From Eledone cirrhosa (Eukaryota): DNA of 64,000 nucleotides. Both the position numbers and the translations under genes were made by a program. The stretch spans positions 437,224,001-437,288,000 of the forward strand of contig OZ024740.1 of NCBI GenBank assembly GCA_964016885.1. Reading direction: 5' to 3'. The notes under the pieces were generated by a model. It made no database searches and had not been told where the DNA came from. It worked only from the letters and a program-made list of their open reading frames with translations. Below are positions 5,339 to 46,018 of this stretch, in pieces. The stretch's first letter is position 1. Every line of letters begins with the position of its first letter.

Positions 5339-5540
5339 ACCACAGACCCTCCATCTCAACTCACCTTTTGAAAAGCAGAAGAATTGCGAAACCGGTAAAG
5401 GAACCAAATCAATATATATATTTTTAAAAAAAATAAGACTCCAGTTGCATTTTCGATTTCATCTCTTTTTCTTTATACTTTCACTCGTGTAGGACACTTC
5501 GATTATTTTTCATTTTGTAAAAAAACCCTCACTTTCTAAT
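5339..5540 (+). mobile_element. Solo PLE 3'-terminal fragment (family B) with HHR variant at 5364-5401
   Basis: Reverse complement of 6716-6915; cctt-TTGAAAA-gcag..ttgc-GAAA-ccgg-TA-aagg. Confidence 0.75.
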
Positions 5541-5964
5541 ATTTACAAATATATATATATATACAAATATATATATACAAATATATATATATATATATAT
5601 ATATATATATATATATATATATATATATATATATATATATATATATATATATATATATATATATATATATATATATATATATATATACAAATATATATAT
5701 ACAAATATATATATAAATACAAATATATAAATATATATATAAATAGGTATATATATATATACAAATATATATATATATATACAAATATATATATATATAT
5801 ATAAATATATATATATATATAAATATATATATATATATATATATATATATATATATATATATATATATATATATATATATTTATATATATATATATATAT
5901 TTATATATATATATTTGGGAGGGTCAAATATATATATATATATGGGAGGGTCTAATATATATAT

Positions 5965-6077
5965 ATCCAAAATAAAGATAAATCATATGAATTTAATCTA
6001 AATCAAAATTATGGGTGTCATGCCAGAAAGATATGGGTCATATCACCCGCAAAATAAGGTCTAAGATTCTAACGAGT
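5965..6077. repeat. Family C fragment
   Basis: Matches 22530-22640 and 43097-43209, and largely 18581-18672. Confidence 0.75.
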
Positions 6078-6217
6078 ATATATATATATTTGTATATATA
6101 TATATTTGTATATATATATATATATTTGTATATATATATATTTGTATATATATATATATTTGTATATATATATATTTGTATATATATATATATTTGTATA
6201 TATATATATTTGTATAT

Positions 6218-6655
6218 ATGTGAAGACAAACATAGAATATTCGAAAATATTCTGTATGTTTATAATAAACATTTTGAAGACCTAATCGCTATAGAATAGA
6301 ATACGTCACGTATTACAATTTGAGATTCTCGATAAAAGCAAGGGAAGTAACCTACGCGTTTCATTCTTATTTGAAATCATTTCCTGTACACAGCTAAGTA
6401 TTCTATAAGTCTCTAGCTGTGTCATTCTCGATAAAAGCATTGGATATGTAATCCTGATGATTTCAAATAAGAATGAAACGCGTAGGTTACTTCCCTTGCT
6501 TTTATCGAGAATCTCAAATTGTAATACGTGACGTATTCTATTCTATAGCGATTAGGTCTTCAAAATGTTTATTATAAACATACAGAATATTTTCGAATAT
6601 TCTATGTTTGTCTTCACATATATATCGCTATTTCAGAGCATTAAATCCAAATTTG
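6218..6655 (+). mobile_element. Fold-back non-coding element, family D (arms ~6218-6379 / 6458-6620)
   Basis: ~160-bp inverted repeat in TA tracts, with a canonical HHR at the start of the right arm. Confidence 0.8.
6448..6490 (+). ncRNA. Minimal type-I hammerhead ribozyme (canonical core)
   Basis: gtaatc-CTGATGA-tttcaaataagaat-GAAA-cgcg-TA-ggttac. Confidence 0.8.
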
Positions 6656-42082: not shown

Positions 42083-42756
42083 ATATATATTTGTATATAT
42101 ATATATATACAAATATATATATATATATATACGTCGAAGCGGCTTGAGCTCAGCCGTCGGGGTCTTACTCGTTCCTATATACAAATATATATATATATAT
42201 ATATATACACACAAATATATATATATATACACATATACAAATATATATATATATACATATACAAATATATATATATATACAAATATATATATATATATAC
42301 AAATATATATATATATATACAAATATATATATATATATACAAATATATATATATATACAAATATATAAATATACATATAAATATGTATATATATATATAT
42401 ATATATATAGAAATATATATATATACAAATATATATATACAAATATATATATATATATACAAATATATATATATACAAATATATATATATATATATATAT
42501 ATATATATATATATATATATATATATATATATAAATATATATATATATATATAAATATATATATATATAAATATATATATATATATAAATATATATATAT
42601 ATATATATATATATATATATATATATATATATAAATATATATATATATATAAATATATATATATATATATATATATATATATATATATATATATATATAT
42701 ATATATATATATATATATATATATATATATATATATATATATATATATATACATAT

Positions 42757-43060
42757 ATTTATTAAAATAACAGATTAAAGTTTAAGCAAAGAATCGCTGC
42801 TTTCACCCTTAACGGGATCTTCTGAAACTAACAAAGTCAATCTGTAAACGCAGAACTGGATATTTCAAAAAACGTTGCAACCGGAGGAAGACAGGAAGAC
42901 GATACTTTGGTTCGTGGTAACGTTCGCTGGCAAAGAACGGGAAAAAACGAATAATACGTCAATAATACGGTTCTTATATATTTTATATATATTTTCCTTA
43001 TCGAGCCCTCTTTGGATTTTAGTCTTCAATTTTATTATTATTACTATTATTATTATTATT
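42757..43060. mobile_element. Family E PLE terminal fragment (HHR variant on the minus strand ~42779-42830)
   Basis: Inverse of 52795-53005 plus inverse of 51536-51617; short piece also at 18154-18202. Confidence 0.72.
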
Positions 43061-43414
43061 ACTATATATATATATATATATATATATATATATATATCCA
43101 AAATTAAGATAAATCAAATGAATTTAATCTAAATCAAGATTATGGGTGTCATGCCAGAAAGACATGCGCCATATCACTCGCAAAATAAGCTCTAAGTTTC
43201 TAACGAGTATATATATATTTGTATATATATATATTTTTATATATATATATATTTGTATATATATATATATATTTGTATATATATATATTTTTATATATAT
43301 ATATATATTTGTATATATATATATATATTTGTATATATATATAGTCGTGTATATATATATTTATATATATATATATATATATATATATATATATATATAT
43401 ATATATATATATAT

Positions 43415-46018
43415 AAAAAGAGAAATAGGACGAAGGTAATCATTTACAAAAGGATTTAATTCACGTATTAACAATTGTTTCATCAGAATTTCAGTCCATT
43501 ATTGCTACACTATGTCATAATAGGCAATCAAGAAAGATACTGTGACATCCGAATTTTCAAAATACAAAGTTGAAATGACCTTAGGAAATGAAATAAGGGG
43601 TAGTAGTGTAAGATAGAGGAACAGAGAGAGAGAGGGGCAAAAGAGAGGGAGAGAGAGAAAAGGGACGGAGGTAGGGAGAGAAAGAGAAAGAGATAGGGTG
43701 GTGTGAGAGGATTTGTATAGAATATAGTTAAGTTACAAGAAGGGAGGGGGAGGAGGATTGTGTGCTAAAAGTTGTGATGAGTAGAGGGAGAGATAAGGAA
43801 GATAGAATTTTAAGTGGCAGTTGGTAGTGGACAGGCAAAAGTTTTACCAGAGAATAGATGAAGGAAGAAAGTATTAAATTTCATATATAGTCTATTTTTA
43901 GGAGTGTAGAATTGTTATTTAGGGTAGAAAAGTAGTGTTAAGATTTAGTTGAAGGTTTGAAGTGTGAGAATTTCGCTTTCAGTTTATGCTGGCAAAAGAT
44001 TGACCTTTCAATTTTGTTGTTGAGTAGTTGGTGGCCTGAGCTTAGGATATGGAAGAGCTCGTTATTACACAACGGCACGTTTTCATCCCACTCCGGTATG
44101 GAGGAGCATGTGAGAGTTTGGTCCATTTAAGGGTGTATTGTCGGTTACTCCCTTTTAAGTGCCAAATTTTGTCGGCGAGGGTCGTTACGTAACGGTGTTG
44201 GGGGTGCTTCATTGCGTAACGATGCGTGTACCAACGAGTTTTGAAGGTGTTTGCAGTGCTGCGTATGTAGTGCCAGGTTTGGTTGTCCGACTCAACCGAG
44301 CACCTGTACACTAGGTTTGAATGCAAACATTCGTTATTCAATGGACAAGTCTCTGGAAGGTGGCAATTACAATTTCTGTTATGGGCAGTGGTGGAGTTAT
44401 AGGTGGGCTGGGATGTGTGTGTGAGTGTGTTTTGTGCATACTGTTTGTTAGTGGGTGGTTGTGTATTAGGTGTATTATTGTGTTGAGTGATTGGGGTGTT
44501 GTTGTTACGGAGTTTTTTGGCGTTGAGCATCTTAATGTGTTCGTCTAGGTTTGGTGCAGTGGAATAAGATAGTCTAATTGTTTTGGTATTGAGTATACTA
44601 CTATATTTATGTGAATTTGGAAAGTGTTTTCTTATAATTTTGTAGAATGTGGAAGGTAAGTTAAAGCTAATAGAAGAGTTAAAAATAGGATAATACCAAA
44701 TGTAAGATCTACTCCGTGTTCTGTTTTGCTTTGATGTTGCTGTTGTATTTGTGGTGTGGTTAGTATTAGGGGGTCTAGGTGCGTGCGTGCGGGTGTTTGT
44801 AGGGTGTTTGGCGTGTCTATGGTTATGTGTTTTATGGTTGTGTCGGTCTATATATTCTTGTTCGTCGGTGTGGCCAGCCCGTTCTAATGCAGTGTTGTAA
44901 TATTCAGCGTGTTGATCAAATATTTGTTGGTTAGATGAGAGGCGGGATATTCTAAGTGATATACTATGTGGCACGGACCTTATAATAGATAGTGAGTGGT
45001 TAGAGCTAGTGTAGATGTAGGTGAGGTTCTCATTGTTTTTGTGAAAGGGTGTGATAATTTGGGTGTTGAGGTTGAAGGTGGCATCTAGGAAGTTAACTAC
45101 TTTGGTACTATATTCGTAGGTGATTTTAAGGCCAAGGCTATCTAGGGTTCTTCTAATGCTCTTACGGGTTCGCTCTATGTTTTGTTTATTCATGTTTTTA
45201 ACTAATAGGAGAGCGTCATCTCTATATATTCCGCCTTGAAGGTAACTAAATTTATTATGTAAGGTGTGGGCTATGTAAATACCAACAATATCCGTAACTT
45301 GTGCTGAGTCATTAGCACCCATAGTTATGTCAAAGTCACCTATTCTATCCTTACGTACCCAAAAGTTATTTTCAAATTTAATTATCGTCTTTCTAGCTGC
45401 TAGGATAATGTTTATTTCGTCGTCGGTTAAGTCAGAGTTGGCTTTCGCAAATGCTAGTGCCTTGTTTAGAGTATCGGGTGATATGGAGGAGTAATAGTCA
45501 TTAATGTCGAATTGTATAAAGTTAGAGGTATTTTTGTTATCTATACTATTAAACCATTTAATTGTGTCGCTAGTATTGTCCCAAAGTTTAATAACTAGTT
45601 TATTCCTTAATTGTATTATTATTCTATCTAAAATATGTTTGCTCATTTTACCTATGTCTGACTTAGAAGGGCATATTAATCTAATTGTGGGTTTATCTAG
45701 GAAATCTAATTTGTGGTCCTTAAGATTAAAGGTGGGAGTGCAAGTTGTCATGGGCTCAGTTCTATCTTCAAGTTCTAGACTTTTGACGATATGGTGTGCT
45801 TGTTTGTTGATGTTAAGTAGTGTTTGGTTATTGGTTTTCTTATATTTTTTATGTAATTCCTTCCGTATAAGGTCGTGGTAGGTATTAGTGTCCATTGTGT
45901 ACACGTTAGATGTTTTATCCGCTTTGACAATAATCCCGTTAGTAGTGCGCAGCTTGTTAAGAAAGGTATCCATGTCTTTATGAAGCTTATTGGTTTTGAA
46001 CTTCTTATATTTAGTATT
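43415..46018 (-). mobile_element. Hydra-type PLE, 5'-truncated; RT-linker-EN ORF ~44042-46018 with a frameshift near the end
   Basis: VKADKT, LKDHK, FIQFDINDYYSSI, ITMGANDSAQV, YRDD, VNFLD, CNCHLPETCPL. Confidence 0.88.
43465..43565 (-). ncRNA. HHR variant (core TTGAAAA, long stem II insert)
   Basis: Minus strand: gtatt-TTGAAAA-ttcgga...tctgat-GAAA-caattg-TT-aatac. Confidence 0.65.

What the first reader, a model, noticed from the sequence alone, without database searches (positions are those of the whole stretch)
5364..43565. Independent HHR families with a U3-A8 compensatory core (UUGAAAA / UUGAUAA)
Seen: families A (514-549), B (5364, 6854, 9393, 24707), 23149-23238 and 43465-43565 replace CUGANGA with UUGANAA, always changing positions 3 and 8 together. 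Established: C3 and G8 form a tertiary Watson-Crick pair in the active hammerhead, and swapped pairs can retain activity. Inference: the double change in both Neptune-like and Hydra-like elements points to selection for function rather than decay. These motifs would be missed by CUGANGA searches. Family A also has GCAA in place of GAAA in all copies.
Basis: partly seen in the sequence, partly recalled or inferred. Interest (0 to 1): 0.75.

Follow-up and report, generated by a model that had tools for sequence, protein, structure and literature searches.

The report
Penelope hammerheads with swapped core pair
Several families of jumping genes in this animal genome carry a small RNA motif, predicted to cut itself, with a U-A instead of a C-G pair in its core; that swap is already published, and the open point is one family of thousands of copies that also changes another core letter and may or may not still cut.

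Summary
The motifs are real: 14 strict type I hammerhead matches in the window against 0.13 per shuffle. They lie in the terminal repeats of Penelope-like retroelements. Natural U3-A8 cores are already in print, also in such elements (Cervera and de la Pena 2014; Perreault 2011), and this scan noted them before, in this genome too. Covariation holds between families, not between copies: of 21 families with two or more sampled copies, 17 are C3-G8, 4 are U3-A8, none mismatched; within family B (about 11,850 copies) all 27 departures are single. A and B are sisters, not independent; the Hydra family D is a separate origin (AU p 1.4e-6); 23149 is a 591-base non-coding retrozyme-like repeat. Family A's C13 is derived and fixed (3,718 copies against 79 with another letter). 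I found no natural A13C in print; it may be the reverse of the A13-C17 contact, since A has A17. Truncated copies of both A and B begin near the predicted cut site more often than upstream, a weak hint of cleavage. Cleavage is untested; no RNA run was available. Verdict: new members of a known kind.

The parts
514..549 (+). Family A hammerhead (U3-A8, C13, A17; stem I 3 U-A pairs; stem III ACCGGU), arm of a fold-back insertion
400..434 (-). Family A inverted copy, one core A missing
17789..17824 (-). Family A hammerhead
17904..17939 (+). Family A hammerhead, stem I reduced to 2 pairs
34090..34125 (-). Family A decayed copy
34205..34240 (+). Family A hammerhead
34820..34856 (-). Family A hammerhead in the 3' repeat of the ORF at 36000-38354
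55026..55061 (+). Family A hammerhead
36000..38354 (-). Family A ORF, 784 aa open: RT (GLKF, ADKG, YLDD), linker CX4CxxC, GIY-YIG with CCHH; Neptune/Nematis type
5364..5401 (+). Family B hammerhead (U3-A8, A13, A17; stem I 4 pairs; stem III ACCGGU)
6854..6891 (-). Family B hammerhead in the 3' repeat of the ORF piece at 8381-9016
9393..9430 (+). Family B hammerhead, inverted partner of the 6854 copy
24707..24744 (+). Family B hammerhead
8381..9016 (-). Family B ORF 3' piece: linker zinc finger and GIY-YIG with CCHH; 56% identical to the family A protein
23149..23238 (-). Family C hammerhead (UUGAUAA, long stem II, stem III ACUACGUAGU, GUC site)
23074..23288 (-). 5'-truncated piece of the 591-base non-coding family C unit, ending at a TA run
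43464..43566 (-). Family D hammerhead (UUGAAAA, U.U at the base of a long stem II, stem III ACAAUUGU, U17)
44042..46129 (-). Family D ORF, Hydra type (DKT, YRDD, CxCX5C linker), 5'-truncated
4598..4646 (+). Comparison: C3-G8 hammerhead with U4C, downstream of the Hydra ORF 626-3073
6448..6490 (+). Comparison: canonical C3-G8 hammerhead, stem III ACGCGU
56677..56719 (-). Comparison: canonical C3-G8 hammerhead, stem III ACUAGU (second copy 57601-57643)

Best explanation
These are type I hammerhead motifs in the terminal repeats of Penelope-like retroelements, in which the core C3-G8 pair has been replaced by U3-A8 in several separate lineages, likely because self-cleavage of the element's RNA stays under selection in the few source elements. 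Shown: the fold, the link of A and B to Neptune/Nematis-type ORFs and of D to a Hydra ORF, the 591-base tandem non-coding unit of C, and family-level 3-8 pairing. Inferred from known hammerhead chemistry and PMC4209133: on a read-through RNA with two repeats the palindromic stems III pair with each other (A and B cannot form a usable stem III alone; C and D might), G12 and the 2'-OH of residue 8 cut after N17, and the released RNA is the template that the element's RT and GIY-YIG nuclease insert at TA runs. C likely borrows those enzymes. Genomic copies are dead on arrival and decay by single changes. Family A descends from an A13 ancestor and likely carries a weakened ribozyme (C13, three-pair stem I); whether it still cuts is about even.
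For: Unselected 1.264 Mb sample including the window: 49 strict matches, 35 C3-G8, 14 U3-A8, 0 mismatched; reversed control 0. All 2.06 Mb held, partly pattern-selected: 37 clusters, majority C-G 27, U-A 7 (one is a split-off A copy), U.G 2 and G-C 1 (all three single copies), control 0; Fisher p about 1e-4 on lineages (families are not independent). One U.G copy belongs to a family that is 72 of 79 U3-A8. Tree of 14 endonuclease pieces: at least 2 changes, one clade rejected, AU p 1.4e-6. Two more U3-A8 families outside the window have C3-G8 relatives at 67-68% DNA identity. Position 7 takes A, U, C and G in U3-A8 families. A and B differ by compensatory pairs in stem II (G-C/U-A) and stem I (C-G/U-A). 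Truncated copies start around the predicted cut: B 11 of 51 and A 6 of 27 begin exactly there against about 8% under a crude uniform model; after allowing for microhomology the weight per position is 6-8 at -1..+2 against 1-2 at -9..-5 in B, and 2-5 against 1-2 in A. Literature: PMC4209133, PMC3088659.
Against: No cleavage assay and no RNA data. The junction excess is a plateau of 3-4 positions, not a spike; neighbours are as high (B: 10 at -1, 9 at +3), the null is crude, and the loci are the first ones listed, not a random draw. Both changes (C to U, G to A) run with the genome's AT bias. In a type III hammerhead scan only the G-C swap was rescued and other double mutants of the CUGA region were low (PMC9901934 passage). 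Metazoan Penelope hammerheads cleave poorly in vitro (PMC4209133). Family A spread to thousands of copies and several subfamilies with A13C and a stem I that is absent from its minimum-energy fold. An earlier unchecked note reports a family in this genome with over 1,400 mismatched copies; I could not find or exclude it. The tree rests on 62-154 residue pieces with a long-branch warning, and most C-G labels rest on one locus each.
Confidence: 0.72

Rival explanations
1. Decay by AT-biased mutation: the ribozyme became dispensable, C3 and G8 each took the commonest transition, and the doubly changed source elements happened to multiply.
For: Both changes are GC-to-AT transitions; family A multiplied with a further core change; Naiads are reported to spread without canonical hammerheads (PMC8557442); U-A rescue was not seen in one scan.
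Against: No multi-copy family in the sample is fixed for the single change, 0 of 21; G5 and G12 stay G in these families (the descriptor demands this, so it shows only that such families exist); stems show compensatory pairs; the double change recurs in separate clades.
Confidence: 0.1
2. The fold is selected, but not for cutting: the palindromic stem III and junction act as an RNA dimerisation or RT-binding and template-jump signal, and the 3-8 pair is kept for shape.
For: Very low in vitro rates for such motifs, and the authors leave non-catalytic roles open (PMC4209133); the junction excess is broad and similar in A (C13) and B (A13); predicted stem III duplexes are stable, -6 to -13 kcal/mol.
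Against: The 3-8 tertiary pair belongs to the catalytic conformation (PMC9901934, PMC2553840 passages); N17 is never G in the named families; family C has the monomer-length tandem layout of retrozymes that are known to cleave.
Confidence: 0.15
3. For family A alone: the ribozyme is dead since A13C, and the family spread without it or by using cleavage in trans.
For: A13 changes cost 10-100-fold (PMC4075628 citing Nelson and Uhlenbeck); stem I is three U-A pairs, hammerhead monomer fold +7.1 kcal/mol against +0.7 for B; relatives B, H1 and H2 all keep A13.
Against: A shows a junction excess at the cut site like B (small numbers, p 0.013); compensatory stem changes separate A from B; C17 pairs with A13 in the structure (PMC7092961 passage), so C13 with A17 could be the reciprocal contact.
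Confidence: 0.45

Closest known systems
U3-A8 minimal hammerheads in the pLTRs of Schistosoma mansoni Cercyon elements and other metazoan Penelope-like elements (Cervera and de la Pena 2014, PMC4209133)
   Same: Type I, in pLTRs, palindromic short stem III, short stem I, inverted and tandem copies, U3-A8 core with the same UUGAAAA and UUGAUAA spellings (about 1,300 hits there).
   Different: Here in Neptune/Nematis-type and Hydra elements and in a non-coding tandem repeat; stem III palindromes of 6-10 bases; stem II up to 72 bases; family A has C13, whereas the 56 motifs of their Fig. S3 all read GAAA.
Natural U3-A8 core variants (Perreault et al. 2011, PMC3088659)
   Same: Same covariation, described as compensatory and active in vitro.
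   Different: Those were scattered examples; none described with A13C in the passages I saw.
Hydra and Neptune/Nematis Penelope-like elements (Craig et al. 2021, PMC8557442)
   Same: D has DKT and CxCX5C and lacks CCHH; A has ADKG, the CX2-5CxxC linker and CCHH; insertion at TA runs; inverted 5'-truncated partners.
   Different: That paper calls Hydra hammerheads canonical; its hammerhead file S2 was not seen. Neptune against Nematis was not resolved here.
Metazoan non-LTR retrozymes (Cervera and de la Pena 2020, PMC7229834; bioRxiv 10.64898/2026.07.22.740005)
   Same: Family C: tandem non-coding units, one type I hammerhead per unit, thousands of copies.
   Different: 591-595 bases against 150-450 reported; U3-A8 core; Penelope-like tail, TA insertion and inverted partners; circular RNA not shown.

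Membership tests
Hammerhead ribozyme, type I | Three-way junction, stems in type I order | tested here: met
   stem I of family A is only 3 U-A pairs
Hammerhead ribozyme, type I | Core U4 G5 A6 A9 G12 A14 A15.1 U16.1, H17, and a Watson-Crick 3-8 pair | tested here: met
   for A, B, C, D (3-8 is U-A)
Hammerhead ribozyme, type I | A13 | tested here: not met
   met in B, C, D; family A has C13 in 3,718 copies against 79 others, so A is filed as a variant of unknown activity
Hammerhead ribozyme, type I | Match to an Rfam hammerhead model | tested here: inconclusive
   none among the 150 of 208 matches listed at E up to 10; 58 weaker ones not shown
Hammerhead ribozyme, type I | Self-cleavage after N17 | not testable with these tools
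   only an indirect junction excess
Penelope-like element, C-terminal EN (Neptune/Nematis type) | One ORF with RT, linker CX2-5CxxC, GIY-YIG with CCHH | tested here: met
   A; B: only the 3' piece is in the window
Penelope-like element, C-terminal EN (Neptune/Nematis type) | Hammerhead in the repeat downstream of the ORF, same strand | tested here: met
   A: ORF end upstream in 10 of 60 loci; B: 1 of 49 loci plus the window
Neptune as against Nematis | RT phylogeny with named references | not tested
   no reference sequences at hand
Hydra clade | DKT, CxCX5C linker, no CCHH, TA insertion, about 3 kb | tested here: met
   same-strand pairs of the D motif 3,043 and 3,046 bases apart
Non-LTR retrozyme (family C) | Tandem non-coding units with one type I hammerhead each | tested here: met
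   18 spacings of 591-595 in 30 partly overlapping loci; longest open frame 86 aa
Non-LTR retrozyme (family C) | Expressed as linear and circular unit-length RNA | not testable with these tools
   no RNA holder listed

The most novel reading that the evidence does not exclude
Family A is a working hammerhead with a core not found in my searches: U3-A8 plus C13, where C13 with A17 is the mirror image of the A13-C17 contact of solved structures. It would be a second natural compensatory swap in the core, present in thousands of copies, and standard GAAA descriptors would miss a class of ribozymes.
Probability: 0.3. Interest if true: 0.6.

Novelty: new member of a known kind. Interest (0 to 1): 0.3.

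Why it matters
The U3-A8 core itself adds little: it is published and has been met repeatedly in this scan. The value is as test material. One genome holds matched sister families that differ by the 3-8 double change, and one sister pair (A, B) that differs at position 13. Together with the junction excess at the predicted cut, they give a direct way to ask whether Penelope hammerheads cut in vivo and whether cutting is needed for transposition, which the cited papers leave open.

Tried and rejected
Rfam scan: no hammerhead model among the listed matches; the microRNA matches are fold-back palindromes below threshold. DNA search of the genome with the B repeat gave nothing because common words are skipped. 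Copy-level counting as a test of selection: rejected, since B's 19 non-U3 copies are all A8 and its 8 non-A8 copies all U3. A13 copies of family A as an ancestral subfamily: not supported, they fall in several subfamilies and non-C13 letters follow a decay spectrum (42 U, 25 A, 12 G by hand count, output partly cut), though 6 of 12 share one marker. A first tally of B junctions as 'joined to TA runs' was dropped: many join the element's own inverted tail. Sequencing runs: no RNA holder listed. Contigs of four runs showed no listed variant in the family C core, and one low-share C13-to-U variant in family A; self-closing 620-base contigs of C in two runs fit tandem DNA as well as circles, so they are not used. 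No ORF was found upstream of families G, E, H1, H2 in the loci held. Hyd21702 and L132 were left out of the second tree (uncertain hammerhead link; near-copy) with the same result. Papers not held: Lunse et al. 2017, Przybilski and Hammann 2007, Nelson and Uhlenbeck 2008, Ambros and Flores 1998, Martick and Scott 2006. No structure or complex prediction was run; it does not bear on an RNA motif.
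Full report
Observation. A structure descriptor with positions 3, 7, 8 and 13 left free recovers every motif named, at the coordinates given. All are type I hammerheads whose stem III is a perfect palindrome: ACCGGU in A and B, ACUACGUAGU at 23149 (family C), ACAAUUGU at 43464 (family D). All 8 family A copies in the window read GCAA. The window without microsatellites gives 14 strict matches (11 U3-A8, 3 C3-G8) against 0.13 per dinucleotide shuffle (60 shuffles, maximum 1). 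Rfam lists no hammerhead among the 150 of 208 matches shown.

What carries them. The window lies in a 3.0-Gb genome rich in TA runs. Family A is the terminal repeat of the 784-aa ORF at 36000-38354, with RT, a CX4CxxC linker and a GIY-YIG domain with CCHH; its end lies upstream of the motif in 10 of 60 fetched loci. Family B belongs to the ORF piece at 8381-9016 (window and 1 of 49 loci). These features fit Neptune or Nematis as described in PMC8557442 (passages and section 11 read); I did not separate the two. D follows a Hydra-type ORF (DKT, CxCX5C). C has no ORF: it is a 591-595-base tandem unit with one hammerhead per unit, ending at TA runs and often with an inverted partner, the layout of retrozymes (PMC7229834, passages). 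Exact-pattern counts are 11,848 for B, 3,718 for A with C13, 5,667 for C and 60 for D, with 0 in each reversed control; these are lower bounds.

Independence. A and B are sisters: their proteins are 56% identical over 200 residues and their repeats align through the whole ribozyme, with compensatory pairs in stems I and II and one broken pair in A. Two further relatives (H1, H2) share stem II and stem III, are U3-A8 and keep A13, so C13 is derived in A. D nests among C3-G8 Hydra families, and a C3-G8 family sits in the same branch as A and B; a tree of 14 endonuclease pieces needs at least two changes and rejects one U3-A8 clade (AU p 1.4e-6; the 16-row tree agrees; pieces are short and there is a long-branch warning). 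Two more U3-A8 families found outside the window have C3-G8 relatives at 67-68% DNA identity. So the swap arose at least twice among ORF-linked families and probably four or five times in all; the upper figure is inference.

Covariation. In 1.264 Mb not selected by pattern (120 stretches plus the window) the strict descriptor finds 35 C3-G8, 14 U3-A8 and 0 mismatched copies, control 0. In all 2.06 Mb held, 37 clusters formed without using the core: 27 C-G, 7 U-A (one a split-off A copy), 2 U.G and 1 G-C, the last three single copies; of the 21 clusters with two or more copies none is mismatched. Inside families there is no covariation: B has 19 copies without U3, all A8, and 8 without A8, all U3; C is 99 of the first 100 U3-A8, D 59 of 60, H1 72 of 79. 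This is what inheritance from a few source elements followed by neutral decay gives. An earlier unchecked note (e1-8836956) reports a family with over 1,400 mismatched copies in this genome; the one candidate I tested was not it, so 'always together' is shown only for my sample.

Trace of cutting. Most join the element's own sequence, which argues against later insertions at a TA step. But neighbouring positions are also high, and after microhomology is allowed for the excess is a plateau from about -2 to +2. It is a hint, equal in A and B, not proof. No RNA run was listed.

Mechanism. From PMC4209133 (parts 1-2 of 4 and supplement parts 1-2 of 3 read) and general hammerhead chemistry: two repeats on one transcript pair through their palindromic stems III (predicted duplexes -6 to -13 kcal/mol), the junction folds with the 3-8 pair, and cleavage after N17 trims or releases the RNA that is then reverse-transcribed into TA runs. 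C and D could close stem III alone (hammerhead fold within 1.5 and 4 kcal/mol of the minimum). All catalytic steps are inferred. For A, changes at 13 are reported to cost 10-100-fold (PMC4075628, passage), and stem I is marginal. However C17 is described as paired with A13 (PMC7092961, passage) and A has A17, so C13-A17 may be the reciprocal contact; that the reversed pair would fit is my inference.

What is known. U3-A8 in Penelope-like hammerheads is explicit in PMC4209133 (about 1,300 hits in Schistosoma mansoni; UUGAUAA and UUGAAAA in Fig. S3), and natural U3-A8 is in PMC3088659 (passages), which cites in vitro activity. Against easy rescue, PMC9901934 (passages) saw only the G-C swap rescued in a type III construct. 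For A13C I found nothing: 'hammerhead ribozyme' with 'A13C' gave 0 papers, motif spellings gave one paper using CYGANGA only, and a search of this scan's notes met no A13C. Lunse et al. 2017 and four older papers were not held, and file S2 of PMC8557442 was searched by words only, so the absence is weak. PMC6765202, PMC2553840, PMC6155905, PMC11014351 and the 2026 bioRxiv preprint were seen as passages only.

Verdict. Observation confirmed; interpretation partly supported; new members of a known kind, interest 0.3. The residual novelty is family A's C13, with about 0.3 probability of being a working compensated core.

Noticed in passing
window 4598-4646 (+) and 24133-24202 (+); loci L290-L319, L031, L040, L062, L076: Large Hydra-linked families fix U4C (CCGANGA), nearly always with A17, while close relatives with U4 mostly have C17; the change creates a CpG, against the usual decay. 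A loose pattern for this stem III class has 15,723 matches against 63 in the control, about half of the first 100 with C4. C at position 4 is a known variant (PMC3088659, PMC4075628, PMC13481778); a 4-17 link is untested.
   Followed up: partly
window 6448-6490, 20010-20046, 28513-28525, 29616-29628, 33299-33311, 56677-56719, 57601-57643, 63109-63174: Canonical C3-G8 hammerheads of at least five other repeat families; several have a U.U or other mismatch at the base of stem II.
   Followed up: partly
window 431-517, 17821-17907, 34122-34208: Perfect fold-back palindromes are head-to-head family A ends joined about 60 bases upstream of the ribozyme; they give false microRNA matches in Rfam. Family B copies most often begin 63 bases before the cut site.
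   Followed up: partly
loci L353 and L367: Family A ORF sequence is joined directly to the tail at the predicted cut site, as if RT had jumped from the end of a cleaved fragment to an internal site.
   Followed up: no
window 29747-32917 (+) and 28907-29647 (-): Third Penelope-like family, 1,056-aa open frame with a linker zinc finger, inverted partner and a C3-G8 hammerhead with a non-palindromic stem III.
   Followed up: partly
window 10382-14298 (+): LTR-type retroelement with gag, protease, RT, RNase H and integrase-like frames in several pieces, judged from the translations only.
   Followed up: no
window 25920-27890 (+), 46032-47871, 48416-51361, 60154-61360: Several LINE-like RT and endonuclease frames, judged from the translations only.
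   Followed up: no
window 18600-19500 and 41170-42080: Long inverted-repeat elements of a further TA-inserted family in which my descriptor found no hammerhead; earlier notes describe rearranged hammerheads in this genome, not checked here.
   Followed up: no
loci L023, L079, L317 (family G) and L310, L311 (family E): Two more U3-A8 families outside the window, each with a C3-G8 relative; E shows compensatory changes in stem II.
   Followed up: partly
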